Positions 1-12,726 of a stretch of DNA of 12,726 nucleotides are shown piece after piece. How positions within the stretch are numbered: position 1 is the stretch's first letter; every line of letters starts with the position of its first letter. Origin of the DNA: a virus (taxonomy: Duplodnaviria; Heunggongvirae; Uroviricota; Caudoviricetes); IMG/VR virus record IMGVR_UViG_3300014846_000084, one strand, 5' to 3'. The notes under the pieces are model-generated. The model did no database searches. It was given only the letters and a program-made list of their open reading frames with translations, and was not told the DNA's origin. The position numbers and the translations under genes are program-made.

Positions 1-1230
1 ATGAGCAGAGCACTTAACAAACTGAGCGATACACAGCTGAGGAAAATCAACGGCACACCCGCCCAAAAAACAGCCTTTCTTAATGACGGTGGAAACCTGA
101 GCGTCAGGCATTCAACCAGCGGCCTTTTAACCTGGTATTTCACCTACAGGGCCGGAACGGGAAGGGGAGCACGACCGGAACGGATTAAGCTGGGAAATTA
201 TCCTGATCTGAGTCTGAAAGCTGCCAGGGAAAAAGCGGCACAGTGTCGCGCTTGGCTTGCTGAGGGGAAAAATCCACGTCATGAGATGAATTACACCGTA
301 CAGAAAGCGTTAAAGCCCGTAACGGTTGGCGATGCGCTTACCTACTGGCTTGAGTCTTACGTAAAGGAAAACCGCGTGGATTATGCCGCCCTGAAAAAGC
401 GCCTTAATAATCACGTAATACAGCACATTGGTGCTATGCCGCTGGATAAATGCGAGCTACGGCACTGGCTGGCCTGTTTTGACCAGGTGGCAAAGCGAAC
501 GCCTGTTACTGCCGGATTCTTGCTACAGACGTGCAAACAGGCGCTTAAGTTCTGCCGGAGGCGGCGCTATGCAATCAGCAACGTTCTTGATGATATGAGT
601 GTGGCGGACGTTGGGAAAAAACCGGATATAAGCGAGCGTGTCTTAAGCACCAAAGAACTTGGCGAATTATTGCAGGCACTGGACAAAAAAATATTTTCCC
701 CTTACTACGTCGCACTAATCCGCCTCCTGATTGTTTTTGGATGCCGGACGGTAGAACTGAGGTTATCGGAGATCAGCGAGTGGGATTTTACCGAAATGCT
801 CTGGACCGTGCCGAAAGAACACAGCAAAACGAAGGTGGCAATATTCCGGCCCATACCGGAAGCAATACTGCCGTTCGTCACGCAGCTGGTGGAGCAGAAC
901 AGGCACACGGGCTTATTGCTGGGGGAAGTGAAACAGGAAACAAGCGTGTCGCAGTACGGCAGATTAGCGCACAGGAGGCTAAAACACCCTCACTGGTCAC
1001 TGCATGACATCCGGCGCACCTTTACAACGATGCTGAACGATTTAGGCGTGGATCCTCACGTCGTGGAGCAGCTTACAGGTCATCAGATGCCAGGGATGCA
1101 ACGAGTCTATAACCATTCCCGTTATCTGGATGCGAAACGTGACGCGCTGGATATGTGGACGGAGCGGTTAGGGATACTGGCGGGAACACATGAAAACGTA
1201 ACCACATTGCCAATAGCCAGAGAAATATAA
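1..1230 (+). CDS. int: Tyrosine site-specific integrase, P4-like family (409 aa)
   Basis: Full-length ORF from the track. C-terminal catalytic motifs are readable in the translation: R in GCRTVELRL, H-x-x-R in SLHDIRRTF, Y in QRVYNHSRY. N-terminal region resembles the arm-binding domain of P4-type integrases. Upstream start context is outside the window. Confidence 0.9.
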   Translation: MSRALNKLSDTQLRKINGTPAQKTAFLNDGGNLSVRHSTSGLLTWYFTYRAGTGRGARPERIKLGNYPDLSLKAAREKAAQCRAWLAEGKNPRHEMNYTVQKALKPVTVGDALTYWLESYVKENRVDYAALKKRLNNHVIQHIGAMPLDKCELRHWLACFDQVAKRTPVTAGFLLQTCKQALKFCRRRRYAISNVLDDMSVADVGKKPDISERVLSTKELGELLQALDKKIFSPYYVALIRLLIVFGCRTVELRLSEISEWDFTEMLWTVPKEHSKTKVAIFRPIPEAILPFVTQLVEQNRHTGLLLGEVKQETSVSQYGRLAHRRLKHPHWSLHDIRRTFTTMLNDLGVDPHVVEQLTGHQMPGMQRVYNHSRYLDAKRDALDMWTERLGILAGTHENVTTLPIAREI

Positions 1231-1595: not shown

Positions 1596-1784
1596 GTGTT
1601 AAGCACAGATCGCTTTATACGTGAAAAAGAATGTCAGCAACTTACAGGCCTGAGCCGCTCATGTCGGTACCGCCTGGAAAAAGCCGGACAATTCCCATCA
1701 CGGCGTAAGCTGGGCGGTCGTTCCGTTGGCTGGTCTTTATCCGAAGTTCTGGCATGGAAGGACAGCTGCGAGGCAGTTCACTAA
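1596..1784 (+). CDS. alpA: AlpA-family (Vis/excisionase-like) HTH transcriptional regulator, 62 aa, GTG start
   Basis: Translation LTGLSRSCRYRLEKAGQFP...GWSLSEVLAWK matches the AlpA/MerR-like winged HTH pattern. Strong SD (AAAGGGGGA) 5 to 8 nt upstream of the GTG at 1596. Confidence 0.85.
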   Translation: MLSTDRFIREKECQQLTGLSRSCRYRLEKAGQFPSRRKLGGRSVGWSLSEVLAWKDSCEAVH

Positions 1785-1836: not shown

Positions 1837-3039
1837 ATGAATACTGGATATTCTCCCGAACAAGGGCGGGGCTTCGTTCGTCCTGAAAAACAGAATCTGC
1901 AAAATTTTGCCGAAATTATTCCGGTTATTTCCGGCCTTACTGGCGGGAGTGAAACCAATATTGTTAACGCCAGAGCGTTGCAGATGTTTGATGATAAAAA
2001 GGGAGTAAATTTAACTTACACCCCTGACGGCAATCAGAATATGAGCATTATCTCTGAGTCAGGTTTCTACAAACTAATAAAAACAAAAAGCGCCCCGTTG
2101 CCGGAGCGCCTTTGTGAACAATTAACCTACTGCGCAAAAAATGAATCTGAGCAGTGGGATTATATCAACCATGTGGAGAAGCGCCACAATTGCCGAATAA
2201 CGGGCAAAACAAAGGCCACCCGCTACGGTGGCCCCTCGACACAAGCTACACGTTATCCCCAACGCATGAGCATTGCCAACAATGCCACATTTGCGGCTGG
2301 TGGGCAATGCAATCAGTCTGGTTCAGTTCGTTGCCATACCTGCAATGAGCGCTTTTCCCTGTACTCTTTAAGGAATTGCTCAAGGGCAAAAGCACATGGC
2401 GCGAATCTTTCTGATTCATGCTCTATCTTTCTGCGCCGTCTTTTCCGTGCCGGTGATAATGTTTTGGTCAATTCTTTATCGGTCATTGTGTTGTCCTGCA
2501 TAGCAATGCGCCGTAATACCTTACACCACGGCGCTGATGGTGATTACTCTGGTTCTTTGGTCTTGCGGCGCTGGAGTTCTTCACGTGCGACAGTGACGAG
2601 CTGCCCGATCTCCTCGGCGGCTTTGATTCCGAGTTTTTCCACCTGCGCCAGTGCATCGAGCGAAGAAACTAGGGGATTTTCTCCACTTCCTTCTGCCTGG
2701 CGCCGGGCGATCTCACCGCGTACAGCCGTAACTATAAAATTCGCTTTAGTTTCCCCTGGCTGTAGGGATGCCTCAATGCCACTCACTACTTCATGTGGAA
2801 ATCTGGCATTCAGTTGCTGTGACTTATTGTTAACAGAACTCCTGGACATGTTTGCACCTCCCATTAATAACGGGATGCAGTGTAATACAAAAGTGAATAC
2901 CAAAAAAGACTTGAAATGGTATTCACCTAAATGTAATGTGAATACCACAAGTGCTGATACATGCAATTCAGCAATTGAAACGACGAAGCCCCGCACTGTT
3001 GGAGCAGTAACGGGGCTTCTAACCAACAACGTAAACTAG
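1837..3039 (+). CDS. Hypothetical ORF with a Bro-N/KilA-N-like segment in the first ~110 aa. The 3' boundary is uncertain: the open frame runs 400 codons, but the distal two thirds look like non-coding antisense of the minus-strand regulator gene. Possible pseudogene or mis-extended ORF.
   Basis: N-terminal translation contains KGVNLTYTPDGNQNMSIISESGFYKLIKTKS, which resembles the conserved Bro-N core. From about residue 150 the composition turns S/C/R-rich and overlaps a well-supported gene on the opposite strand. Weak SD before the ATG at 1837. Confidence 0.3.
   Translation: MNTGYSPEQGRGFVRPEKQNLQNFAEIIPVISGLTGGSETNIVNARALQMFDDKKGVNLTYTPDGNQNMSIISESGFYKLIKTKSAPLPERLCEQLTYCAKNESEQWDYINHVEKRHNCRITGKTKATRYGGPSTQATRYPQRMSIANNATFAAGGQCNQSGSVRCHTCNERFSLYSLRNCSRAKAHGANLSDSCSIFLRRLFRAGDNVLVNSLSVIVLSCIAMRRNTLHHGADGDYSGSLVLRRWSSSRATVTSCPISSAALIPSFSTCASASSEETRGFSPLPSAWRRAISPRTAVTIKFALVSPGCRDASMPLTTSCGNLAFSCCDLLLTELLDMFAPPINNGMQCNTKVNTKKDLKWYSPKCNVNTTSADTCNSAIETTKPRTVGAVTGLLTNNVN
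2313..2486 (-). CDS. Possible small basic protein (57 aa, MTDKELTKTLSPARKRRRRK...), downstream of the RHH gene on the minus strand
   Basis: ORF in the track (2313..2501) trimmed to the second ATG, which has an AGGA about 8 nt upstream. Composition is protein-like but there is no recognisable family. Overlaps the open + frame of the preceding feature. Confidence 0.2.
   Translation of the reverse strand: MTDKELTKTLSPARKRRRRKIEHESERFAPCAFALEQFLKEYREKRSLQVWQRTEPD
2544..2849 (-). CDS. Ribbon-helix-helix (Arc/MetJ-like) DNA-binding regulator, about 101 aa; candidate island repressor
   Basis: Track ORF 2544..3029 trimmed to the internal ATG at 2849, which has a strong SD (GGGAGGTG) 5 nt upstream. 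N-terminal segment LNARFPHEVVSGIEASLQPGETKANFIVTAVRGEI fits an RHH beta-strand/helix pattern. Transcribed divergently from the downstream operon. Confidence 0.7.
   Translation of the reverse strand: MSRSSVNNKSQQLNARFPHEVVSGIEASLQPGETKANFIVTAVRGEIARRQAEGSGENPLVSSLDALAQVEKLGIKAAEEIGQLVTVAREELQRRKTKEPE
2893..2947. promoter_or_regulatory. Operator-like triple repeat GTGAATACCA (direct 2893-2902, inverted 2918-2927, direct 2938-2947) in the divergent intergenic region between the RHH gene and the 3048 operon
   Basis: Three exact copies of a 10-mer in alternating orientation, within about 55 bp, lying between two divergent start codons (2849 minus, 3048 plus). Confidence 0.5.
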
Positions 3040-3934: not shown

Positions 3935-4234
3935 ATGAAACTTAAATATTCTGGCTTAACTGCCAGTGGCAACACTCACCCTAAATTTACGCGCGGTGAT
4001 ATTTACCGCGACCAGTACGGCGGCACGGTAATGATTAAGGGCGTGGAGGAACGTCGCGTAACTTACCGCCGTGAAGGCTACGAATATGATTGCGTGATGC
4101 CTGTTTATCAGTTCGACCGTGATTTTTCTCTTGTGCAGGCCGTACCGCGTAACGTGCCCACCAGCAGGGAGAAAGCACGCGCCAATATTCAGAAGATGAA
4201 AACCATGATTAACGGATTCAGGGGTAAAAAATGA
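3935..4234 (+). CDS. Hypothetical protein (99 aa), translationally coupled to the primase gene (ATGA overlap)
   Basis: Track ORF with GGAGA SD upstream. Its stop overlaps the primase ATG at 4231. Confidence 0.6.
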   Translation: MKLKYSGLTASGNTHPKFTRGDIYRDQYGGTVMIKGVEERRVTYRREGYEYDCVMPVYQFDRDFSLVQAVPRNVPTSREKARANIQKMKTMINGFRGKK

Positions 4235-5985
4235 AACTGGCACCGAACGTAAAACAGCAGTCACGCGGCATAAAACACAAAGAAACAGAAGTCATTATTT
4301 TTGCGGGTAGTGATGCCTGGTCACACGCAAAACAATGGCAGGAACATGACGCGCGTATGGCCGGAGATAATGAGCCTCCTGTGTGGCTTGGGGAGCAGCA
4401 GTTATCCGAACTGGATAAGCTGCAAATTGTGCCGGAAGGCAGAAAATGCGTACGAATATTCAGGGCCGGACATCTTGCGCCAGTAATGATAAAGGCGATT
4501 GGTCAGAAGCTGGCGGCGGCTGGCGTACAGGATGCAAATTTTTATCCTGAGGGTATGCACGGCCAGGAGGTGCAGAACTGGCGCGAATATCTGGCCCGTG
4601 AGCGACAGAATCTTTCTGATGGTCTGGTCATTGAGCTTCCGGTAAAGCAAAAGGCGCAACTTTCTCAGATGGCGGACAGTGAGCGCGCGCAGCTGCTTTC
4701 CGGGCGCTTTGATGGCGTTTGCGTGCATCCTGAAAGTGAAATCGTCCACGTCTGGCGCGGCGGGGGATGGTGTCCGGTCAGCACAATGGAACTGAGCCGC
4801 GAAATGGTGGCGATCTATTCAGAGCACAGGGCCACTTTCAGCAAGCGCGTAATCAATAACGCCGTGGAAGCGTTAAAAGTTATTGCCGAACCAATGGGCG
4901 AGCCGTCCGGTGATTTACTGCCGTTCGCCAATGGTGCGCTTGACCTGAAAACGGGGGAATTTTACCCGCACACGCCGGAGAACTGGATCACCACGCACAA
5001 CGGCATTGAGTACACGCCACCAGCACCAGGGGAGAACATCCGCGATAACGCGCCAAACTTTCATAAATGGCTTGAGCACGCAGCCGGAAAAGACCCGCGC
5101 AAGATGATGCGTATATGTGCCGCGCTGTACATGATTATGGCGAACCGGTACGACTGGCAGATGTTTATTGAGGCCACCGGAGATGGCGGGAGCGGTAAAA
5201 GTACATTCACGCACATAGCCAGCCTTCTGGCAGGGAAACAGAACACGGTAAGCGCTGAAATGACATCGCTTGATGATGCTGGTGGACGTGCGCAGGTTGT
5301 CGGGAGTCGTCTTATCGTCCTGGCTGACCAGCCGAAATATACAGGCGAAGGAACGGGCATCAAGAAAATCACGGGCGGTGACCCTGTGGAAATTAACCCG
5401 AAATACGAAAAGCGTTTCACGGCTGTAATCAGAGCGGTGGTGCTGGCGACCAACAATAACCCGATGATATTCACCGAACGGGCCGGAGGTGTGGCACGTC
5501 GTCGCGTGATTTTCCGTTTCGACAATATCGTCAGTGAGGCCGAAAAAGACAGGGAGCTACCGGAAAAGATTGCGGCTGAAATCCCTGTCATTATCCGCCG
5601 ATTGCTGGCGAACTTTACCGACCCTGAGAAGGCACGGGCTTTACTACTGGAACAGCGTGACGGTGATGAAGCTCTGGCAATAAAGCAACAGACGGATCCG
5701 GTTATTGAGTTTTGCCAGTTCCTGAATTTTCTGGAGGAAGCACGCGGCCTGATGATGGGCGGCGGTGGCGATTCAGTGAAGTACACGACCAGAAACAGCC
5801 TTTACCGCGTCTATCTGGCGTTTATGGCGTACGCAGGCAGGAGCAAACCGCTAAACGTAAATGACTTTGGCAAGGCTATGAAGCCAGCCGCGAAAGTTTA
5901 CGGACATGAATATATTACGCGGAAAGTTAAGGGAGTAACGCAGACTAACGCAATAACAACAGACGATTGCGACGCGTTTTTATAA
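4231..5985 (+). CDS. Phage/plasmid primase-helicase, P4 alpha-like (D5_N plus P-loop NTPase C-terminal region), 584 aa; probable replication initiator of the island
   Basis: Walker A reads EATGDGGSGKST and a Walker-B-like RLIVLADQ follows. Overall size and layout match P4-family primase C-terminal domain proteins. The iteron array starts directly after the stop. Confidence 0.88.
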   Translation: MKLAPNVKQQSRGIKHKETEVIIFAGSDAWSHAKQWQEHDARMAGDNEPPVWLGEQQLSELDKLQIVPEGRKCVRIFRAGHLAPVMIKAIGQKLAAAGVQDANFYPEGMHGQEVQNWREYLARERQNLSDGLVIELPVKQKAQLSQMADSERAQLLSGRFDGVCVHPESEIVHVWRGGGWCPVSTMELSREMVAIYSEHRATFSKRVINNAVEALKVIAEPMGEPSGDLLPFANGALDLKTGEFYPHTPENWITTHNGIEYTPPAPGENIRDNAPNFHKWLEHAAGKDPRKMMRICAALYMIMANRYDWQMFIEATGDGGSGKSTFTHIASLLAGKQNTVSAEMTSLDDAGGRAQVVGSRLIVLADQPKYTGEGTGIKKITGGDPVEINPKYEKRFTAVIRAVVLATNNNPMIFTERAGGVARRRVIFRFDNIVSEAEKDRELPEKIAAEIPVIIRRLLANFTDPEKARALLLEQRDGDEALAIKQQTDPVIEFCQFLNFLEEARGLMMGGGGDSVKYTTRNSLYRVYLAFMAYAGRSKPLNVNDFGKAMKPAAKVYGHEYITRKVKGVTQTNAITTDDCDAFL

Positions 5986-5997
5986 TTTGTTGCAATG

Positions 5998-6225
5998 GCT
6001 GTCTACCCTGTCTACCTGAGTAAAGAAAAATACATTTAATTCAGTACATTAACTTAGGTAGACAGCCTTTTTTCACTGTCTACCTACTATCTACCCTCTC
6101 TACCTGATTTTACCTGAATCAGACAGGGAGGTAGATACGGGGTAGATAGTGGATAAAAGCACTCTACCCTACTGAAAGCCGCGCCATTACTGGCATGGTG
6201 GCCAGTAAGGTAGATAAGGTAGACA
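5998..6225. repeat. Iteron array, candidate origin of replication: about 12 copies of GGTAGA(C/T)A / T(G)TCTACC in both orientations flanking an AT-rich spacer
   Basis: CTGTCTACC at 5999-6007, 6008-6016 and 6076-6084; GGTAGACAG at 6057-6065; TCTACC at 6090 and 6099; GGTAGATA at 6130, 6141 and 6209; GGTAGACA at 6218. AT-rich stretch at 6018-6056. Confidence 0.6.
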
Positions 6226-6273
6226 AGGGGAGGCACAACTCAAAACTTTTTAAACGAGGGGGTAAAAATAAAA

Positions 6274-6525
6274 ATGCGCACATCAGGAAAACTTAATAAT
6301 CAGAAGAAGCAGCATAACCGCGCCATTGACCTTACAGAGCACTGGCTGAGAGTGGCGATAAAAATCATCGACCGCAACACGGGGGAAGGATACGCGAAAG
6401 CACATCCCGACCTGATAAGCGCATTCATGACCACGGCGGCGGCAAACTTTGCCACGCTGACAGAACGGGAGATTGCCGAAGCGGAACAGGTAACAACCAT
6501 CAACGTTAAAAGCGCTGGAGAATAA
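6274..6525 (+). CDS. Hypothetical protein (83 aa)
   Basis: Track ORF. GAGGGGG SD at 6256-6262. Followed by an intrinsic terminator. Confidence 0.55.
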   Translation: MRTSGKLNNQKKQHNRAIDLTEHWLRVAIKIIDRNTGEGYAKAHPDLISAFMTTAAANFATLTEREIAEAEQVTTINVKSAGE

Positions 6526-6543
6526 CCGAAGAAGTGAGCACAT

Positions 6544-6568
6544 AGCCGGAGCAATCCGGCTTTTTTTC
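6544..6568 (+). terminator. Rho-independent terminator (AGCCGGA-gcaa-TCCGGCT followed by a T7 run)
   Basis: 7-bp GC-rich stem with a 4-nt loop and a run of seven T immediately after, 20 nt past the stop of the 6274 ORF. Confidence 0.6.
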
Positions 6569-6655
6569 GATCTCATATATCTTAAAAGATGGTTAATTAA
6601 TGATAATCTATCGAAAATACTGGTTATGTAATGATAAGTATCAGGAGAAAACAAA

Positions 6656-6850
6656 GTGGAAGAGATAAAGCAAAGCGCTACCGTGATGATTGATCATGAA
6701 ATCCTTAACGAGCTTAAAAAGTTGCAGTTCGATATTGTGCGCCGGATGAATGAATCAGGTATCTACGGCAGGGCGGCAACACCAACAATAGGGCATCTTG
6801 CGCGCGTACTGTTACGCGAACGCCTGGGCATTGCAACAAGTGAGGCGTAA
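6656..6850 (+). CDS. Hypothetical small protein (64 aa), GTG start; first gene of the putative late/packaging operon
   Basis: Track ORF. CAGGAG SD at about 6642. Preceded by an AT-rich promoter-like stretch at 6570-6650. Confidence 0.5.
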   Translation: MEEIKQSATVMIDHEILNELKKLQFDIVRRMNESGIYGRAATPTIGHLARVLLRERLGIATSEA

Positions 6851-6853
6851 ACA

Positions 6854-7015
6854 ATGGCTATCACAGAACGCGAGGCAAGCATCATTAAGGCCATTGGCGA
6901 GGAAACAAGAGACACCATAGCGCCATTGATGGAAAAGATCGCAGAGCTTGAGACACGAATAAACAAGCTGAGTAATGAAGTTGAAGGCCTGATCTCGTTA
7001 CTCGGTGAGCAATGA
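6854..7015 (+). CDS. Small predicted coiled-coil protein (53 aa, MAITEREASIIKAIGEETRDTIAPLMEKIAELETRINKLSNEVEGLISLLGEQ); absent from the ORF track, which appears to omit ORFs under 60 aa
   Basis: Translated by hand. ATG lies 4 nt after the upstream stop, with a GAGG about 9 nt upstream. Heptad-like charged/hydrophobic pattern. Confidence 0.4.
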   Translation: MAITEREASIIKAIGEETRDTIAPLMEKIAELETRINKLSNEVEGLISLLGEQ

Positions 7016-7143
7016 CATGGGGGGGAGTGTTCCGGCCGGAAAGTCGATCTCCCTGGACACCGCCCCCCGTCTCATTCGTAGAAAATTTTGCTTTTCAAAA
7101 AAGTTACACGAAAAGTTACACCCCCTCAAAACGAGGTTTTTGC

Positions 7144-7632
7144 ATGGCATTAACGACCAAAAAAAAGCGGTTTGCTGATGCGTTATCAAGGGGCGCAAAT
7201 CCCACGGAAGCCGCTATACATGCGGGATACAGCGAAAAGACCGCAAGGGTTAAAGGCTGGCAGCTATCCAACGATCCTGAGGTGAAAAAGTATCTTAAGG
7301 CTGTAACTCCTGATGTAACTTTTCAGGTTACAAAACCGAAAAAAGTTACAAAGAAAGTTACCGAAAAAGTTACACCGGAACGGGCATCAATTAACACCAT
7401 TGAGATGATGGATAACGGCCTACCCGACCCCATCAAAGCAATGGGCAGGATACTGATTGACAACATGGACACAGATCCAAAACTGGCTTTAGATGCCGCG
7501 TTTAAGCTGGCCCAGTTCACCCACCGCAAGATCGGCAGCATTGGGAAAAAAGAGGTTAAAAAACTCAATGCCGCTAGTGTCTCCTCAAATCGGTTCCCCA
7601 TCCCTAAGCCACCAACAGGCTTAAAACACTGA
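7144..7632 (+). CDS. terS: Terminase small subunit (TerS, Terminase_2-like), 162 aa
   Basis: Track ORF 7012..7632 trimmed to the internal ATG at 7144, which has a GAGG SD. N-terminus FADALSRGANPTEAAIHAGYSEKTARVKGWQLSNDPEV matches the conserved TerS HTH signature (AGYS..TA). The upstream 44 codons of the track ORF are GC-rich, structured, non-coding-looking sequence. Confidence 0.8.
   Translation: MALTTKKKRFADALSRGANPTEAAIHAGYSEKTARVKGWQLSNDPEVKKYLKAVTPDVTFQVTKPKKVTKKVTEKVTPERASINTIEMMDNGLPDPIKAMGRILIDNMDTDPKLALDAAFKLAQFTHRKIGSIGKKEVKKLNAASVSSNRFPIPKPPTGLKH
7303..7375. repeat. Cluster of six GTTAC/GTAAC pentamer-containing repeats spaced about 12 bp apart inside terS (encoding the repetitive KVT linker); candidate pac/TerS recognition site
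   Basis: GTAAC at 7303 and 7315; GTTAC at 7328, 7345, 7357 and 7369. Two further AAAAGTTACAC copies lie just upstream of the terS start (GTTACAC at 7103-7109 and 7115-7121). Confidence 0.45.
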
Positions 7633-7643
7633 GGTAGCGAACT

Positions 7644-7805
7644 ATGAGCGAATACATCACAGACCCTATTGATGTACTCACGGAAATCATGAACGACAAG
7701 CAGCAGTCGACCGAAATACGGTTACAGGCCGCCGCTATTCTGATGCCATATTTTCACGAAACACTAAACCCGTGCTTCCAAGAGGAGGAAGAAGATGATC
7801 TGTAA
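7644..7805 (+). CDS. Small acidic protein (53 aa, MSEYITDPIDVLTEIMNDKQQSTEIRLQAAAILMPYFHETLNPCFQEEEEDDL); absent from the ORF track
   Basis: Translated by hand. ATG at 7644 lies 11 nt after the terS stop, with a GAGG about 9 nt upstream. Its 3' end overlaps the start of the capsid-like gene by 11 nt. Confidence 0.4.
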   Translation: MSEYITDPIDVLTEIMNDKQQSTEIRLQAAAILMPYFHETLNPCFQEEEEDDL

Positions 7806-8718
7806 AAACATGAAAGGCGTGTCAGCAGTTCGCGCCGCCAGCGTGCTGGCATCGTGTAAATTTAGCCATGCTGACGCTATAGAGATGACGAAAAGAAATG
7901 ATCCGGCAGTATCGTTATTTCTTGAAAAATCCGTAGTAGCAGGAATGAACACGGATAACATGCCGTCGCTGGTGGCAGAGCCGATAGTAAGAGAGCTTGG
8001 CGAGTATATTTTTTCGCAGTCTGTACCAGGCAAGCTAATCAGCAGCGCGCTAAATCTTCCGTTTGGCGCAAAATTGCAGTCAATATCAGGCAAGGGTAGT
8101 AAATGGCTTAAAGAGGCCGAAGAAATCCCAGTCAAAGAGGGAGAAGTAAACGAAAGCGCGCTAAAACTGTGCAAACTCGGCGCTATTGTGATGCTGAATA
8201 ACGAGCTAATCAAATTTAGCACCCCTGGTACCAATTCAGCGATCAGAGACTTGATCACATCGGAATCGGTGAAAGAAATAGATAAAAAATTTCTTTCCAG
8301 TGACCAGGAGGTGGCTGGCGTATCCCCTGAGGGCGTGCTTAATGGTGCTGATGAGGCCGAAAACTTCATAGAGCTTTTCAAAAAGCACATAGCGAACGGT
8401 AACACGCTTGCCACGTCGTCGCTAATCTTGCCCGTAGAAAACGCCTTACAGCTTACTGATGCTGAGTTCTGGCAGATAGAGCTTTTGAGAATACCGGTAA
8501 TTGTGAGCGAACAGGCGGATCTCATGATGCTGATAGACGCTAAAAAGCTGATTATTAACGTTGAAGCCACGGTTATAACCCCAACTGATGAGGCGGTAAT
8601 AAAAACCGAATCAGGGACGGTTAGCCTTTTCCAGAATGACGCTACAGCGTTCATGGCAATCACCTATTGCGGATGGCAAAAACTCGATAAGGCCGTCACC
8701 GTTCTGGCGAAAAGCTGA
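7795..8718 (+). CDS. HK97-fold major capsid protein homolog (307 aa), putative; possibly a capsid-redirecting MCP paralog given the absence of other head genes
   Basis: AGGAGG SD 7 nt upstream of the ATG. The overall pattern, especially the C-terminal region (LRIPVIVSEQADLMMLIDAKKLIINVEATVITPT...SLFQNDATAFMAITYCGWQ), resembles HK97-type major capsid proteins. Assignment is by eye only. Confidence 0.55.
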   Translation: MICKNMKGVSAVRAASVLASCKFSHADAIEMTKRNDPAVSLFLEKSVVAGMNTDNMPSLVAEPIVRELGEYIFSQSVPGKLISSALNLPFGAKLQSISGKGSKWLKEAEEIPVKEGEVNESALKLCKLGAIVMLNNELIKFSTPGTNSAIRDLITSESVKEIDKKFLSSDQEVAGVSPEGVLNGADEAENFIELFKKHIANGNTLATSSLILPVENALQLTDAEFWQIELLRIPVIVSEQADLMMLIDAKKLIINVEATVITPTDEAVIKTESGTVSLFQNDATAFMAITYCGWQKLDKAVTVLAKS

Positions 8719-8732
8719 TTTTTCCGGCATCA

Positions 8733-8762
8733 ATCCCGATATGGTGATCCCCATATCGGGAT
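8733..8762. other. Perfect 12-bp inverted repeat hairpin (ATCCCGATATGG-tgatcc-CCATATCGGGAT) 15 nt after the capsid-like gene stop; possible weak terminator, RNA element or protein-binding site
   Basis: Arms at 8733-8744 and 8751-8762 are exact reverse complements. Followed by AT-rich sequence but not a clean T-run. Confidence 0.4.
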
Positions 8763-8805
8763 AATTACGAAATTTTCGCAGTTTAATAGCTGACCAGGTG
8801 GAGAA

Positions 8806-9087
8806 ATGACAGAAGCCGAAATACTGGGATTAATCCGCCGCGTTGCCGGAATCAGCAAGCAGGCCGACGAACAGGCCACGCAGCCGGACAGCGTGACCGC
8901 CGAAAATTATGTGCGTGTTGTTGCTGAGGTGATGCGCCGTGATGGTATCCAGCTTAATGATGTGGATATGCGCAACATACGGATCCGCGTTCTTGAAATG
9001 CTGGCCTACAATCGCCGCGTTGAACTGTATCGGGAGAAAGAAAAAATTACGTACCACTGGAAGAAGCCGGAGCGGTTACGGCGTTAA
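8806..9087 (+). CDS. Hypothetical protein (93 aa), last gene of the island
   Basis: Track ORF. AGGTGGAG SD at 8796-8803. Balanced, protein-like composition. Confidence 0.55.
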   Translation: MTEAEILGLIRRVAGISKQADEQATQPDSVTAENYVRVVAEVMRRDGIQLNDVDMRNIRIRVLEMLAYNRRVELYREKEKITYHWKKPERLRR

Positions 9088-9093
9088 CGAGTA

Positions 9094-9138
9094 GTGACAT
9101 ACCGTGACGGAGAGTGACAACCAGTGACACAACGTGAC
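9094..9138. repeat. Tandem array of five phased 10-bp repeats (GTGAC every 10 bp; consensus nnnGTGACAn) at the island terminus
   Basis: GTGAC at 9094, 9104, 9114, 9124 and 9134. Contains the octamer GACACAAC (9126-9133), which also occurs at 1275-1282 and 1536-1543. Confidence 0.6.
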
Positions 9139-9390
9139 AAAAAGACGGTATTTAAACAGGGGGAGTATTTAATACCCCTCCCACCAGCCTGATTAACATT
9201 TAACCGGAAAAAAAATCCGGTACCATGATGGCAGACGCTAGGGCAATCATTGCTGAAATTGCACACTTTTTAAGCAAATCATTTTAGTTATACGTTTGGT
9301 TATACGATTTAAAAGTTGAATCAAGCATATTTATTAAAATCATGTAGTTACACGCTAAATTAAACTACTCTCGTGCCAAAAATCCCAAGA

Positions 9391-9419
9391 AAAAACCAAC
9401 CCTTACGGTTGGTTTTTTT
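9391..9419. terminator. Bidirectional intrinsic terminator (AACCAACC-cttac-GGTTGGTT flanked by an A-run and a T-run); serves the convergent autotransporter gene and probably the island's rightward transcripts
   Basis: Perfect 8-bp stem (9394-9401 / 9407-9414) with a 5-nt loop, a T7 run on the + strand and an A-run upstream that gives a T-run on the minus strand. Lies about 60 nt past the autotransporter stop. Confidence 0.7.
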
Positions 9420-9480: not shown

Positions 9481-12072
9481 TCAGAACGTCCAGACCACAC
9501 CCGCCTGAGTATTCCACGGCGATTCTACCCCTGCGCCATTGCCATAGCTGACTGACAAATGACCGCTTAACGTCGGGGTAAACGATGACCTTATACCAGC
9601 CTGATAAACGCCACTGGTTCCAGCCACATCATTATTAAATTTGCCATCGTCATTAACTTTCACCTGGTTAGAATCGGCGTATTCCTGACGCACGGCCGCT
9701 TTCAGCCAGGGTTCCAGCGTCGTACCGTTTTGCAGGTCCATGTGATAGCTTACCGCCGTTCCCGCTTCAGCGCGTAATATCCGGGTATTTCCCACATCCG
9801 CGCGCATGCCGTTTGATAACGTGTAGTCCTGACCATCTGTGGTAAAGCCGGTAAAGGCCAGATAGGGTCTAACACTCCACAATCCGTCAACCCAACGGAA
9901 CCCGCTCTCAACATGAGCACCCGCGCCGTTACTATTGTAATCGCCAAACGCTGTTGCCCCATTACTCATCTTGCCATGGATGGTGTTGGCAAAACGGTCA
10001 ACTTTCACCACCCCATCAACATAGGCACCGTTCTGATGCTCCCAACCGGCATAAGCCCCCAGGGTATAGCTATCGATATTACCTTTGCCGCCGCGATCAA
10101 AACCAATATCAGAATGAGAGTAACCAAAGATCAAGCCGCGAATTGTACTGCTTTCTTCACGGGAGAAACGGCTATCGATACCGAGCGTCAGGCCCGTCAA
10201 TGTTTGCTCAAAACCAGCTCCCGCATCAGTGGTCACGTTGTTGCGGGTGTTAATTGCCGAACTCCACATCGCCGTATCGTAACTAACGCCTTTTACGCTA
10301 CCAAGACGCTCACGCACGGTGTCCAGTTCTGCATCAAATACCAGCGGTTGTGCGGCCGCCATATTCAGCACATCAGTGGTTGAAGGGGTAATTTGCGCGC
10401 GATTCTCTGCCAGACTCCAGCTATGGTTGCCATTATCCAGCAAGGTATATTCATACGTACCGATATCAACAACGCCTCCGGCATTGCCCAACGTAAATGC
10501 AGCATCACCGCCGCCCGTTGTTACCAGTGTAAGGCTATCTCCTGCTGCCGGGCTGGCACCGGTGTCCGTCACGAATATTTTGAAATCACCTGTTGCCTGA
10601 CCGGTGACGTTGAGCTGATCGCTCTGATGATTAGCCATATCGGTACGCATATAAAAATTGCCGTTTCCCGACAGGGTATTGGTGGTCAACGTAATGAAAT
10701 TTTCCGCACTTGCCGTCACTGATGAACGAGTCACTGGCTCATCCATCATAATCACATTTGCGTCAGACATCGCAAGGTTGGCTAAGTTGAGGAGGGTGTT
10801 TTGGTTCGTCGTAGTGATATCGGCAATGATGGTCCATACGCTATTTTCGAGCGAAACGTCCGCTTTGCTGGTATCCACGGCACCATTCGTTCTAAAAGAA
10901 GCGCCCTCAGAAACCACTACCTTACCCACCAACATTGCGGGTGCATAATTTATTTGCGGCTTCATGACCTCAAGAATGCCATCATTCCCTCTGACTGAAA
11001 CGTTAACCATTGTGCCAGCCCAGACGTTAGCGCGGCCATTGTTGATAACCATATTTTCAGAGATGGCTTTTGAGGAATACGTGATACTTCCATTCTGATA
11101 TGATCGACCGAGATCATATACCGCATTTGCCTGCACTTTCGTACCAGTATCCTTTCCCAGCGATTGCATAGTGGCATGCTTATCAAGGATAGTATCAATG
11201 GCCTGCGTGTCCTCCATAACAATGAGCCCGGAACCATCATCCAGTTCATAATTTTTTGACACACCATCTTTTATACTAAATTGGCCTTTACTGTTTGGAC
11301 CACTCACTTCCAGCGCATTCGTTGAGACAATTAATTTTCCGCCTGCTTTTTTATCAACGCCAGTTACAGTCCCGCCATCCATAACCTCCAGTAAGCCGCC
11401 ACTATCTACAGTGGTATTATAAGCGAAGTCATTTTCTTCAACTCGCAAACTTCCGCCGTTTTCCAACAACATATTATTAGCAATACCATTCTTGATATCG
11501 AACTGACCGAGACGGTTTGTTCCGAATACCTCCATGGCCCGCGTGGTTGTTTTAATAGCACCGCCTGCTTTCTGATCTACCGCAAATGCAAATCCCCCCT
11601 CTTTAACCTCCAGTAGTCCTCCCTTTTCGATAGCGACAAAGACGGCCCCCCCATCTTTTTCAACGATTAAGCGCCCGCCTTTAATCGTGGTATCATTCGC
11701 TGCGCCATAAACCTGTAGCACACCATTATTGAGCGTAGTCTGGTTTGCCGCGCCACCCATTTGAACAATTTGATAACCGTCATTTAATACTGAGTATTCT
11801 GCGGCGCCATTCATTTCAATGTACTGATACCCTCCGTTAATTTCAGTATTATTACTTACACCAAATTCTTTTATATGCTGTTCTCCGCCAGGATTGATTT
11901 TCGTATTATTGGCGGTCCCATAAACCAGCTGGATATCTTTTTCCAGGACAACACCATCAACTGTCTCACCATACTCAACAGTTGATGCCAATGCTATGGG
12001 TGAATATAACGCTGTAGCCACCAGAACAGATATTGCGGAACGACAAAGAGAAACAGAACCAGATTGATGCAT
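9481..12072 (-). CDS. AIDA-I-type (type Va) autotransporter adhesin, 863 aa, with signal peptide, repeat-rich passenger and C-terminal beta-barrel translocator
   Basis: N-terminal signal-peptide-like segment (LCRSAISVLVATALYSPIALAST). Passenger region has recurring glycine-rich repeats (e.g. NTKINPGGEQ, NTEINGGYQY, IVEKDGGAVF, LEVKEGGFAF). C-terminal about 280 aa has alternating aromatic/hydrophobic beta-strand pattern and ends ...AGVVWTF, typical of autotransporter beta-domains. Confidence 0.88.
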   Translation of the reverse strand: MHQSGSVSLCRSAISVLVATALYSPIALASTVEYGETVDGVVLEKDIQLVYGTANNTKINPGGEQHIKEFGVSNNTEINGGYQYIEMNGAAEYSVLNDGYQIVQMGGAANQTTLNNGVLQVYGAANDTTIKGGRLIVEKDGGAVFVAIEKGGLLEVKEGGFAFAVDQKAGGAIKTTTRAMEVFGTNRLGQFDIKNGIANNMLLENGGSLRVEENDFAYNTTVDSGGLLEVMDGGTVTGVDKKAGGKLIVSTNALEVSGPNSKGQFSIKDGVSKNYELDDGSGLIVMEDTQAIDTILDKHATMQSLGKDTGTKVQANAVYDLGRSYQNGSITYSSKAISENMVINNGRANVWAGTMVNVSVRGNDGILEVMKPQINYAPAMLVGKVVVSEGASFRTNGAVDTSKADVSLENSVWTIIADITTTNQNTLLNLANLAMSDANVIMMDEPVTRSSVTASAENFITLTTNTLSGNGNFYMRTDMANHQSDQLNVTGQATGDFKIFVTDTGASPAAGDSLTLVTTGGGDAAFTLGNAGGVVDIGTYEYTLLDNGNHSWSLAENRAQITPSTTDVLNMAAAQPLVFDAELDTVRERLGSVKGVSYDTAMWSSAINTRNNVTTDAGAGFEQTLTGLTLGIDSRFSREESSTIRGLIFGYSHSDIGFDRGGKGNIDSYTLGAYAGWEHQNGAYVDGVVKVDRFANTIHGKMSNGATAFGDYNSNGAGAHVESGFRWVDGLWSVRPYLAFTGFTTDGQDYTLSNGMRADVGNTRILRAEAGTAVSYHMDLQNGTTLEPWLKAAVRQEYADSNQVKVNDDGKFNNDVAGTSGVYQAGIRSSFTPTLSGHLSVSYGNGAGVESPWNTQAGVVWTF

Positions 12073-12269: not shown

Positions 12270-12726
12270 TAGACTGGCCCCCTGAATCTCCAGACAACCA
12301 ATATCACTTAAATAAGTGATAGTCTTAATACTAGTTTTTAGACTAGTCATTGGAGAACAGATGATTGATGTCTTAGGGCCGGAGAAACGCAGACGGCGTA
12401 CCACACAGGAAAAGATCGCAATTGTTCAGCAGAGCTTTGAACCGGGGATGACGGTCTCCCTCGTTGCCCGGCAACATGGTGTAGCAGCCAGCCAGTTATT
12501 TCTCTGGCGTAAGCAATACCAGGAAGGAAGTCTTACTGCTGTCGCCGCCGGAGAACAGGTTGTTCCTGCCTCTGAACTTGCTGCCGCCATGAAGCAGATT
12601 AAAGAACTCCAGCGCCTGCTCGGCAAGAAAACGATGGAAAATGAACTCCTCAAAGAAGCCGTTGAATATGGACGGGCAAAAAAGTGGATAAAGCACGCGC
12701 CCTTATTGCCCGGGGATGGGGAGTAA
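12270..12726 (+). mobile_element. IS2 (IS3 family) insertion sequence, left end only; IRL begins about 12270 and the element continues beyond the window
   Basis: Sequence from about 12270 (TAGACTGGCCCCCTGAATCTCCAGACAACC...) matches my recollection of the IS2 left inverted repeat, and the downstream ORF matches IS2 orfA. Recognised from memory, not from a search. Confidence 0.8.
12361..12726 (+). CDS. insC: IS2 transposase OrfA (InsC-like HTH protein), 121 aa
   Basis: Track ORF 12316..12726 trimmed to the ATG at 12361, which has a GGAGAACAG SD-like sequence upstream. Translation [40 protein letters not shown]... is the IS2/IS3-family OrfA as I recall it. Confidence 0.88.

What the first reader, a model, noticed from the sequence alone, without database searches (positions are those of the whole stretch)
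6854..7805. Two sub-60-aa ORFs missing from the ORF track, flanking terS
Hand translation gives a 53-aa coiled-coil-like protein (6854-7015) and a 53-aa acidic protein (7644-7805), both with SD-like sequences and tight coupling to neighbours. Small proteins next to terS in satellites can modulate helper terminase specificity.
Basis: partly seen in the sequence, partly recalled or inferred. Interest (0 to 1): 0.4.

Follow-up and report, generated by a model that had tools for sequence, protein, structure and literature searches.

The report
Two small satellite packaging-module genes
Both 53-codon reading frames are real, conserved genes in the DNA-packaging module of an E. coli phage satellite; one is a previously undescribed cut-down copy of the small terminase's ring-forming core that always sits next to the terminase gene, and the other is a plain leucine-zipper protein of unknown role.

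Summary
Both 53-aa ORFs exist at the stated coordinates, each with an ATG start, a GAGG Shine-Dalgarno sequence and tight coupling to its neighbours. They were "missing" only because of a 60-aa display cut-off; RefSeq already annotates both as hypothetical proteins. Both are under purifying selection (dN/dS about 0.1-0.25, like terS and the capsid gene) and are intact in every related locus checked.

The window is a PICI-type satellite (int, alpA, primase) next to yejO. Its packaging module reads: 64-aa gene, ORF A, cos-like site, terS, ORF B, capsid-like gene.

ORF B is the interesting one. It is a paralogue of the TerS oligomerisation core with no DNA-binding HTH domain (hhalign 98%, E 4.5e-14, against TerS residues 87-135). 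It carries an acidic tail where TerS has a basic one. It belongs to an unnamed family of 47-68-aa proteins found in Enterobacterales, Pseudomonas and Burkholderia. In all 11 contexts examined, the gene lies immediately 3' of terS: 7 satellites, 3 complete prophages and 1 prophage remnant.

My best guess for its action is docking onto TerS rings, either as an accessory subunit or as a decoy. This is inferred, not shown.

ORF A is one long helix with a GCN4-like zipper. It was found only in E. coli and Hafnia, and nothing links it to terminase.

The parts
6656..6850 (+). 64-aa gene (GTG start), the upstream partner of ORF A. I read it by eye as ribbon-helix-helix-like; no tool supports that.
   Evidence: ORF. 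Annotated by PGAP. Intact in 18 of 18 loci aligned over their full length. No Pfam, PHROG or NCBIfam hit. The Hafnia island has a non-homologous 65-aa gene at the same place that overlaps its ORF A by 10 nt.
6854..7015 (+). ORF A: a 53-aa protein forming a single long helix, with a GCN4-like leucine zipper over residues 22-52.
   Evidence: for the ORF. PGAP WP_001018604.1. pS 0.74 against pN 0.28 versus Hafnia. Intact in 25 of 25 loci. AF2 helix 5-51, pLDDT 95. GCN4 matches.
7019..7086 (.). cos-like core: a G7 run, then GGACACCGCCCCCC, then GTCTCAT and AGAAAA.
   Evidence: About 80% identical to the intergenic region between the HNH endonuclease gene and terS in O157:H7 and STEC prophages. The core is conserved in the Hafnia island and in Pseudomonas phages and satellites at the same position. 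Its function as cos is inferred from position; it was not tested.
7097..7122 (+). Two direct AAAAGTTACAC repeats, candidate TerS-binding (cosB-like) sites.
   Evidence: Five further AGTTAC copies at 7303-7373, inside terS, share the 12-nt phasing. Seven of the 12 matches in the window fall in 7102-7373, against 4.1 expected for the whole window. The prophage L002 has 5 GTTAAC instead.
7144..7632 (+). terS, a 162-aa small terminase subunit (N-terminal HTH, variable linker, oligomerisation core, basic tail).
   Evidence: Pfam Terminase_2 E 1.9e-10. phrog_641 over its full length, E 1.3e-43. PGAP 'terminase small subunit'. 47% identical to the O157 prophage TerS by BLASTP; the C-terminal core stretch is much more similar than the rest by my reading of that alignment.
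7644..7805 (+). ORF B: a 53-aa paralogue of the TerS core with no HTH domain (two-helix hairpin plus acidic tail).
   Evidence: phrog_641 positions 89-125, E 4.4e-7. hhalign against the TerS alignment: 98.2%, E 4.5e-14, onto TerS residues 87-135. NV1 TerS 7JOQ residues 81-101. AF2 helices 8-16 and 23-37. Top Foldseek hits are TerS. dN/dS 0.19-0.25. PGAP WP_167599070.1.
7795..8718 (+). Capsid-like gene, 307 aa, HK97 fold. It overlaps ORF B by 11 nt.
   Evidence: Pfam Phage_capsid E 1.7e-6. 23% identical to residues 291-629 of the prophage's 645-aa 'phage major capsid protein'.
8806..9087 (+). 93-aa gene (phrog_1561), the last gene of the island on this side.
   Evidence: This segment is shared by many more E. 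coli genomes than the rest of the module.

Best explanation
The window carries a PICI-type phage satellite next to yejO. In a 99.5%-identical relative the island sits at tRNA-Pro, between yejM and yejO.

The region in question is the satellite's packaging module: 64-aa gene, ORF A, cos-like site with AGTTAC repeats, terS, ORF B, capsid-like gene. Both small ORFs are real protein-coding genes.

**ORF B.**
- It is a stand-alone copy of the small terminase's oligomerisation core. It has a two-helix hairpin equivalent to TerS residues 87-135. It lacks the N-terminal DNA-binding HTH domain. It has an acidic tail where TerS has a basic one.
- It belongs to an old, unnamed family that always travels with terS in HNH/cos-type packaging modules.
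- Most likely mechanism (inferred): ORF B docks through the hairpin onto, or into, TerS rings. There it changes how the small terminase engages DNA or the helper's large terminase.
- The satellites keep only terS and ORF B of the terminase genes. The pair is therefore probably the unit that directs the helper's TerL and HNH nuclease to the satellite's own cos.

**ORF A.**
- It is a homo-oligomeric leucine-zipper protein made together with the upstream 64-aa protein, at the start of the packaging operon.
- Its role is unknown. My weak guess is a regulatory or assembly partner rather than a terminase factor.
For: **Shown: the satellite.**
- Integrase, AlpA and a D5_N primase-helicase are present, and there is no terL, portal or tail gene.
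- Locus context comes from L001.

**Shown: real genes.**
- dN/dS and intactness and PGAP annotation.

**Shown: ORF B is related to the TerS core.**
- phrog_641, E 4.4e-7.
- tblastn hits fall inside Burkholderia phage TerS genes.
- The family HMM scores 51-63 bits on five phage TerS.
- hhalign gives 98.2%, E 4.5e-14.
- PDB 7JOQ residues 81-101 match. PMC7672466 places the alpha4-alpha5 hairpin, residues 64-105, in the oligomerisation core of the related PaP3 TerS.
- The AF2 hairpin has pLDDT 94-96, and its top fold hits are TerS.

**Shown: the family.**
- Dozens of 47-68-aa stand-alone proteins with the core DPxDFLLAVMND...R[IL]EAAxALMPYFH.
- In the 11 family members and 16 TerS taken from the loci examined, every family member is net acidic and every TerS tail is basic.

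**Shown: synteny.**
- The gene lies directly 3' of terS in 7 satellites (window, L013, L007, L012, L034, L028, L029), 3 prophages (L030, L031, L033) and 1 remnant (L032).

**Shown: satellite and phage versions of the module are related.**
- The Pseudomonas satellite TerS is 76-77% identical to the phage L033 TerS.

**Shown: cos.**
- The cos-like core is shared with HNH-type prophages, while the adjacent repeats differ (AGTTAC against GTTAAC).
Against: - No binding or functional data exist; the docking mechanism is pure inference from homology.
- Fold matches are top-ranked but not significant on their own (E 0.7 and 0.015), because the domain is tiny.
- The E. coli prophages with the most similar cos and TerS (L002, L003) lack ORF B, so the terminase works without it in close relatives.
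- In most ORF B-bearing elements, the cognate TerS core no longer matches the ORF B motif (0-5 bits). That fits a decoy aimed at other TerS at least as well as a cognate partner.
- For ORF A there is no functional lead beyond its structure and position.
Confidence: 0.55

Rival explanations
1. ORF B is an anti-terminase decoy (a dominant-negative TerS). It binds the helper's, or a competitor's, TerS protomers or TerL through the shared core. The resulting complexes lack the DNA-binding HTH domain and the basic tail, so rival genomes are not packaged. The element's own TerS has a diverged core and escapes.
For: - ORF B lacks the HTH domain and has a charge-inverted tail.
- Its motif matches canonical phage TerS cores at 54-63 bits. 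The TerS encoded next to it in the E. coli, Hafnia, Burkholderia and several Pseudomonas elements scores 0-5 bits.
- It diverges faster than TerS between phage and satellite copies (40-62% against 76-88% identity), as expected in an arms race.
- Satellites are known to encode small packaging inhibitors: Gpi of PLE, Rpp and Ppi (from my own knowledge).
Against: - Complete prophages L030 and L031 encode it next to a TerS whose core still matches the motif (51 bits). By my count the two cores are roughly half identical.
- That would make it self-poisoning unless it is regulated.
- No candidate target TerS with the canonical motif was found in E. coli phages.
- Faster divergence is also expected for any short protein with a disordered tail.
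Confidence: 0.25
2. ORF B is an evolutionary leftover: the 3' fragment of a second terS left behind by recombination. It is translated or not, but has no function of its own. ORF A is likewise a dispensable filler ORF.
For: - ORF B aligns only to the C-terminal half of TerS.
- Packaging modules of these islands are mosaic. The same module occurs with a D5_N primase in the window and with an AAA_25 helicase in L016 and L017.
- The closest E. coli prophage terminase works without ORF B.
Against: - dN/dS is 0.19-0.25 for ORF B and about 0.12 for ORF A, and no copy is disrupted.
- Each has its own Shine-Dalgarno sequence and start codon.
- The stand-alone family spans Enterobacterales, Pseudomonas and Burkholderiales down to 38-45% identity, with a conserved acidic tail and conserved position.
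- A decaying fragment would not persist that long.
Confidence: 0.05
3. ORF A is a small scaffolding-like or size-determining protein that works with the capsid-like gene, analogous to CpmB of the SaPIs. Its invariant C-terminus (NEVEGLISLLGEQ) would contact capsid protein.
For: - It is a small, fully helical, oligomerising protein.
- It sits in the same operon as a capsid homologue.
- The C-terminal 13 residues are identical between E. coli and Hafnia while the underlying codons differ at synonymous sites.
Against: - It shows no sequence similarity to the prophage's 645-aa capsid protein or to any other phage sequence in the collection.
- It is absent from the Pseudomonas and Burkholderia satellites that have the same terS, ORF B and capsid trio.
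- It is coupled to the 64-aa gene rather than to the capsid gene.
- The resemblance to CpmB is from memory only.
Confidence: 0.15

Closest known systems
Small terminase subunit (TerS) of the Terminase_2 / SF6-PaP3-NV1 class; PHROG 641
   Same: ORF B aligns to the helical core that follows the HTH domain and linker. Evidence: hhalign 98% onto TerS 87-135, a match to NV1 TerS residues 81-101, and TerS as the top fold hits. PMC7672466 places the alpha4-alpha5 hairpin in the oligomerisation core of PaP3 TerS.
   Different: ORF B has no HTH DNA-binding domain and no linker. It has an acidic instead of a basic C-terminal tail. It is 53 aa, against 142-187 aa for the full-length HTH-type TerS compared here. 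It is encoded as a separate gene after a complete terS.
Rpp (redirecting phage packaging) of EcCICFT073-type E. coli PICIs (PMC6739421)
   Same: Both are satellite-encoded proteins that partly mimic TerS. Rpp forms a heterocomplex with helper TerS to retarget packaging to the satellite cos.
   Different: Rpp is about 139 aa. It mimics the DNA-binding domain and dimerises through a C-terminal coiled coil. ORF B mimics the opposite part of TerS, the oligomerisation core, and has no DNA-binding domain. This island also has a full terS. No sequence relation was seen.
Ppi of SaPIs, and Gpi/GpsA/GpsB of Vibrio PLE (bioRxiv 10.1101/2024.04.22.590561)
   Same: These are small satellite proteins that act on helper terminase subunits and help decide whose DNA is packaged. 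ORF B's gene sits directly after terS.
   Different: Ppi (own knowledge) and Gpi are described as inhibitors, not as terminase-derived proteins. ORF B is terminase-derived and also occurs in complete prophages.
cos-type SaPIs such as SaPIbov5 (cos site, Ccm capsid homologue, HNH-dependent helper; PMC5052747, PMC8569155)
   Same: The module logic matches: a satellite carrying a helper-like cos and a capsid-protein homologue, exploiting a helper with HNH, TerS and TerL.
   Different: This island also carries its own terS and ORF B. Next to the shared cos core it has different repeats (AGTTAC against GTTAAC). That points to its own recognition specificity rather than simple cos mimicry.
GCN4-type leucine zipper
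   Same: ORF A residues 22-52 carry a continuous a/d heptad pattern and score against GCN4 zipper chains (best E 5.5e-5).
   Different: The match reflects coiled-coil composition, not ancestry. ORF A has no basic DNA-binding region; its N-terminal 21 residues are acidic to neutral.

Membership tests
Phage-inducible chromosomal island (Gram-negative PICI, as listed in PMC6092414) | Tyrosine integrase at one end | tested here: met
   Window 1-1230: Arm-DNA-bind_3 plus Phage_integrase.
Phage-inducible chromosomal island (Gram-negative PICI, as listed in PMC6092414) | AlpA-type regulator and unidirectional transcription | tested here: met
   Window 1596-1784: Phage_AlpA, E 3e-18. All island genes from int to the 93-aa gene are on the + strand.
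Phage-inducible chromosomal island (Gram-negative PICI, as listed in PMC6092414) | Own replication module (primase/helicase) | tested here: met
   Window 4231-5985: D5_N, DUF5906 and Pox_D5.
Phage-inducible chromosomal island (Gram-negative PICI, as listed in PMC6092414) | Small size, with no lysis, tail, portal or terL genes | tested here: met
   About 9.1 kb from int to the last island gene. The only phage-like genes are terS and one capsid homologue. The left end of the island lies outside the window.
Phage-inducible chromosomal island (Gram-negative PICI, as listed in PMC6092414) | Induction, packaging and high-frequency transfer by a helper phage | not testable with these tools
   The only lead is the cos-like core shared with HNH-type prophages.
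Terminase small subunit (Terminase_2 class), tested for ORF B | N-terminal HTH DNA-binding domain | tested here: not met
   ORF B gives no Terminase_2 hit. Its alignment to TerS starts at TerS residue 87.
Terminase small subunit (Terminase_2 class), tested for ORF B | Helical oligomerisation core | tested here: met
Terminase small subunit (Terminase_2 class), tested for ORF B | Basic C-terminal tail (GKKE...F..PPP) present in every TerS of this group | tested here: not met
   The ORF B tail is ETLNPCFQEEEEDDL, with 7 acidic and 0 basic residues. TerS tails have 8-11 K/R in their last 45 residues.
Terminase small subunit (Terminase_2 class), tested for ORF B | Forms ring oligomers and binds cos/pac DNA | not testable with these tools
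   Needs biochemistry or multimer modelling.
Rpp family | MerR-like wHTH domain mimicking the TerS DNA-binding domain, plus a C-terminal dimerisation helix (PMC6739421) | tested here: not met
   Neither ORF has a wHTH domain. PDB sequence searches with ORF B, ORF A and the island TerS returned no Rpp chain.
SaPI Ppi, PLE Gpi | Binds helper TerS (Ppi) or TerL (Gpi) and blocks packaging | not tested
   No sequences of these proteins were at hand. The function is not testable here.

The most novel reading that the evidence does not exclude
The ORF B family is an unrecognised third component of HNH/cos-type terminases: a TerS paralogue with no DNA-binding domain that assembles into mixed rings with TerS. 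Changing the number or spacing of HTH domains, or displaying acidic tails, would set which cos/repeat array is recognised or would poison rival TerS rings. Satellites from E. coli to Burkholderia would have captured it together with terS as their means of telling their own DNA from the helper's.
Probability: 0.3. Interest if true: 0.65.

Novelty: new variant of a known kind. Interest (0 to 1): 0.45.

Why it matters
How satellites get their own DNA, rather than the helper's, into helper capsids is known in detail for only a few systems: SaPI TerS and Ppi, Rpp, and PLE Gpi/Gps.

This island type occurs in about 220 of the 5,426 complete E. coli genomes in the collection, including many STEC O157, O26, O111 and O121 strains. 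It appears to use a different kit: a helper-like cos core with its own repeats, its own TerS, and a conserved mini-protein made only of the TerS ring-forming core.

If that mini-protein does co-assemble with TerS, it would show that small-terminase rings can be tuned or sabotaged by subunits lacking a DNA-binding domain. It would also put a name and a testable function on a small-protein family that no Pfam, NCBIfam or PADLOC model matched. It would further give a handle for engineering the packaging specificity of PICI-based delivery vehicles.

ORF A, by contrast, is of local interest only.

Tried and rejected
- **BLASTP of ORF B against the island TerS** found nothing. Only profile methods show the relationship.
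- **Family libraries.** Pfam, NCBIfam and PADLOC gave no meaningful hit for either ORF. Rfam found nothing in the window.
- **ORF A homologue searches** of the phage collection, IMG/VR and metagenome contigs found only copies at least 96% identical. The one distant relative, from Hafnia, came from the first protein search.
- **ORF A against the prophage's 645-aa capsid protein** gave no similarity, which weakens the scaffold idea.
- **The name 'antitermination protein NusG'**, given to ORF A by some NCBI records, is rejected. ORF A is a 53-aa single helix, and no NusG family appeared in the Pfam or NCBIfam scans.
- **Readthrough or frameshift fusion of terS and ORF B** is rejected for E. coli and Hafnia: the frames differ and a TAG lies just upstream. 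In the Pseudomonas loci the two genes abut in the same frame, but across a stop codon.
- **The hypothesis that ORF B is satellite-specific** is rejected after finding it in complete prophages.
- **HEAT-like repeat hits.** The exhaustive search with the ORF B profile also hit long proteins matched in 6-9 separate stretches, and a PDB search hit a repeat protein weakly. I regard these as motif-level resemblance (D..xR..AA.AL), not as relatives.
- **First genome scan** with the 17-sequence alignment failed for lack of a conserved stretch. A smaller alignment worked.
- **Promoter scan** found no sigma-70-like promoter in 5900-9400, so how the operon is expressed remains open.
Full report
**1. What the window is.**

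The + strand carries, in order:
- a tyrosine integrase (1-1230; Arm-DNA-bind_3 plus Phage_integrase);
- an AlpA regulator (1596-1784);
- several small genes, including a DUF4222 gene (3935-4234);
- a D5_N/DUF5906/Pox_D5 primase-helicase (4231-5985);
- an 83-aa gene (6274-6525), followed by a terminator-like hairpin (6544-6561);
- the block under study;
- a 93-aa gene (8806-9087).

Beyond the island lie the autotransporter gene yejO on the - strand and the start of an HTH_Tnp_1 transposase ORF. A 99.5%-identical region in E. coli ZH48 places the island between tRNA-Pro/yejM and yejO. With int, alpA and its own replicase, and with no terL, portal, tail or lysis genes, it fits the Gram-negative PICI description of PMC6092414. 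That paper already notes that some of these islands carry a terS homologue and a capsid homologue.

**2. The observation.**

- ORF A (6854-7015) starts 3 nt after the stop of a 64-aa gene, with GAGG 8 nt upstream.
- ORF B (7644-7805) starts 11 nt after the terS stop, with a GAGG that overlaps that stop codon.
- ORF B ends 11 nt inside the capsid-like gene. The codons of its acidic tail (GAGGAGGAAGAAGATG) supply that gene's Shine-Dalgarno sequence and ATG.
- terS begins at 7144, not 7012.

The ORFs were "missing" only because they are shorter than 60 aa. PGAP annotates both as hypothetical proteins. The whole block is present at 95-99% identity in about 220 of 5,426 complete E. coli genomes, always annotated with three hypothetical proteins, terS and a capsid gene.

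**3. Are they genes?**

A Hafnia island (L013) has the same five-gene order, with an ORF A homologue of 57 aa and an ORF B homologue of 50 aa. Nei-Gojobori counts give:
- ORF A: pS 0.74 and pN 0.28 against Hafnia;
- ORF B: dN/dS 0.19-0.25 against two E. coli variants, and pS 0.83 with pN 0.27 against Hafnia;
- terS and the capsid gene: 0.15-0.19 in the same comparisons.

The invariant C-terminus of ORF A is encoded by codons that differ at synonymous positions, so the constraint is on the protein and not on the adjacent DNA site. In 25 further loci from genomes, IMG/VR and metagenomes, ORF A is intact in 25 of 25 and ORF B in 24 of 24. Both are real genes.

**4. The space between ORF A and terS.**

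Window 7019-7097 is about 80% identical to the intergenic region between the HNH endonuclease gene and terS in O157:H7 and other STEC prophages. Those prophages have the order HNH, terS, terL, a 645-aa capsid gene.
- In HNH-dependent cos phages, that interval is where cos lies. This rests on established knowledge of HK97-like phages and on the SaPIbov5 work cited in PMC6739421.
- The core (a G run, then GGACACCGCCCCC) recurs at the same position in the Hafnia island and in Pseudomonas phages and satellites.
- Downstream of the core, the elements differ. The island has AGTTAC copies in 12-nt phase, two before terS and five inside its linker-coding region. That is 7 of the window's 12 matches, against 4.1 expected for the whole window.
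- The prophage instead has five GTTAAC.

I read this as a shared cleavage site with element-specific TerS-binding repeats. This is inference.

The island TerS is 47% identical to the prophage TerS overall. By my reading of the alignment, its C-terminal core is far more similar than the rest.

**5. What ORF B is.**

- Its best PHROG hit is the same family as the island's terS, phrog_641, at profile positions 89-125 (E 4.4e-7).
- An exhaustive profile search and a second indexed search found dozens of stand-alone proteins of 47-68 aa. They share the core DPxDFLLAVMND...R[IL]EAAxALMPYFH. Full-length small terminases carry the same motif after their HTH domain and linker.
- hhalign of the family against a TerS alignment gives 98.2% probability and E 4.5e-14. 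It maps ORF B residues 2-46 onto island TerS residues 87-135.
- The family profile also matches residues 81-101 of the NV1 TerS (PDB 7JOQ). For the related PaP3 TerS, PMC7672466 describes an alpha4-alpha5 hairpin (residues 64-105) that forms the oligomerisation core together with the following beta strand.
- AF2 predicts helices 8-16 and 23-37 with pLDDT 94-96 and a disordered tail.
- The top Foldseek matches in the PDB and in BFVD are small terminases. Their E-values, 0.7 and 0.015, are weak for so small a domain.
- In the 11 family members and 16 TerS taken from the loci examined, every family member is net acidic (-3 to -11), while every TerS has a basic tail.

ORF B is therefore a TerS core without the DNA-binding domain, and with the charge of the tail inverted.

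**6. Where the family occurs.**

In all 11 contexts examined, the gene lies immediately 3' of terS.
- Seven are satellite-like: they have int, alpA or a replicase, plus a capsid homologue and terS, and no terL. These are the window, Hafnia L013, Pseudomonas L007, L012 and L034, Paraburkholderia L028 and Burkholderia L029.
- Three are complete Pseudomonas prophages with the order HNH, cos, terS, ORF B, terL, portal, ClpP, capsid (L030, L031, L033).
- One is a remnant (L032).
- Five other terS genes of the same family have no ORF B after them: L002 and L003 from E. coli, and L009-L011. In four of these, terL follows terS directly.

The Pseudomonas satellite TerS is 76-77% identical to the phage L033 TerS, and the Hafnia island TerS is 88% identical to that of L032. 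The matching ORF B pairs are only 40-62% identical. The family is thus not satellite-specific. It behaves as a companion of terS, and satellites appear to have taken it over together with terS and cos.

**7. How ORF B most likely works.**

- Shown: homology to the ring-forming core, obligatory linkage to terS, absence of the HTH domain, and the acidic tail.
- Inferred: ORF B binds TerS through the hairpin.

Two readings remain.

(a) Accessory subunit. The satellites keep exactly terS and ORF B of the terminase genes, and complete phages encode ORF B between terS and terL, next to a TerS with a similar core.

(b) Decoy. The ORF B motif scores 54-63 bits on the phage TerS that have no ORF B after them, but 0-5 bits on the TerS encoded next to it in most elements. 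It also evolves faster than TerS.

I favour (a), or a mixture of the two, at about 0.55, and give (b) about 0.25. A non-functional remnant is very unlikely, given the selection and the phylogenetic depth.

**8. ORF A.**

- AF2 gives a single helix over residues 5-51 at pLDDT 95.
- Residues 22-52 have an unbroken a/d heptad pattern and score against GCN4 zipper chains, so a parallel coiled-coil oligomer is expected.
- The N-terminal 14 residues and the last 13 residues are the conserved parts.
- Relatives were found only in E. coli (at least 96% identity, with one protein cluster at 89%) and in Hafnia (56-60%).
- The Pseudomonas and Burkholderia satellites have unrelated genes, or none, at that position.
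- In both genera it is coupled to the upstream small gene, although those two upstream proteins are not homologous to each other.
- Nothing ties it to terminase. A regulatory or assembly role is a guess, and the CpmB-like scaffold idea has no support beyond shape.

**9. Comparison and novelty.**

The island type, and the presence of terS and a capsid homologue in some Gram-negative PICIs, are known (PMC6092414).
- Rpp (PMC6739421) mimics the DNA-binding end of TerS; ORF B mimics the other end.
- Ppi and PLE Gpi/GpsA/GpsB are functional analogues at most.

I found no paper and no Pfam, NCBIfam or PADLOC model for the ORF B family. I rate it a new variant of a known kind: a terminase-derived small packaging protein. 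Interest is moderate. ORF A is an ordinary small coiled-coil gene.

Noticed in passing
window 7019-7086: A cos-like core (G7, then GGACACCGCCCCCC, then GTCTCAT) lies between ORF A and terS. It is about 80% identical to the HNH-terS intergenic region of STEC prophages. It is also conserved in Hafnia and in Pseudomonas phages and satellites.
   Followed up: yes
window 7097-7122 and 7303-7373; L002 4084-4203: There are seven AGTTAC copies in 12-nt phase: two upstream of terS, two inverted and three direct inside the terS linker-coding region. They encode the KKVTKKVTEKVT repeat. The related prophage has five GTTAAC instead. Other TerS linkers read KVN/KVK repeats, which suggests that recognition repeats are embedded in the terS linker itself.
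   Followed up: partly
window 7782-7797: The codons of ORF B's acidic tail (GAGGAGGAAGAAGATG) double as the Shine-Dalgarno sequence and ATG of the capsid-like gene. The tail is acidic in family members that have no such overlap too, so the charge is a protein-level feature.
   Followed up: partly
window 7795-8718 versus L003 5965-7902: The island's 307-aa capsid homologue aligns only to residues 291-629 of the prophage's 645-aa 'phage major capsid protein' (23% identity). It corresponds to the C-terminal part alone, reminiscent of Ccm of SaPIbov5.
   Followed up: partly
window 4231-5985 versus L001 5309-6709, L016 3027-4436: The same packaging block occurs with different replication modules: a D5_N primase-helicase of 584 aa here, and an AAA_25-type (PGAP 'RepA family') helicase of about 466-469 aa in L001, L016 and L017. 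The islands are modular mosaics.
   Followed up: no
window 6656-6850; L013 5813-6010: The small gene coupled to ORF A looks ribbon-helix-helix-like by eye in both E. coli and Hafnia, yet the two proteins are not detectably homologous to each other. No profile hit was found.
   Followed up: no
L007 4967/4968, L012 4973/4974, L030, L031, L033 and L034 7000/7001: In the Pseudomonas elements the ORF B homologue starts on the nucleotide after the terS stop codon and in the same reading frame (for example TAAATG and TGAATG). The genes are tightly coupled, and stop-codon readthrough to a TerS-ORF B fusion cannot be excluded there.
   Followed up: partly
L007, L012, L033; L013, L032: Between phage and satellite copies of the module, TerS is 76-88% identical but ORF B only 40-62%. 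ORF B diverges faster than its neighbour.
   Followed up: partly
proteins P0009-P0011 (ORF A homologues): Some NCBI records name this 53-aa zipper protein 'antitermination protein NusG', which looks like a propagated misannotation.
   Followed up: no
window 1837-3039: A 400-aa + strand ORF with an odd, low-complexity-looking translation covers a region where the ZH48 relative has a pseudogene, a YlcI/YnfO-family gene on the - strand and an Icd-like gene. It is probably not a real gene.
   Followed up: no
window 9481-12072 (-) and 12316-12726 (+): yejO is an intact 863-aa autotransporter here (AIDA, Pertactin and Autotransporter domains), whereas it is a pseudogene with an internal stop in strain ZH48. 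A transposase ORF (HTH_Tnp_1) begins at the window's 3' end.
   Followed up: no
window 6544-6561: A terminator-like hairpin with a T run follows the 83-aa gene and precedes the 64-aa gene. No sigma-70-like promoter was found anywhere in 5900-9400, so how the packaging operon is switched on is unclear.
   Followed up: no
L034 7506-12132; L028 9941-13193: The Pseudomonas and Paraburkholderia satellites carry defence-like cargo right after the ORF B homologue: AAA_15/AAA_21 and Abi_2 genes in one, Z1 and DUF4928 genes in the other.
   Followed up: no
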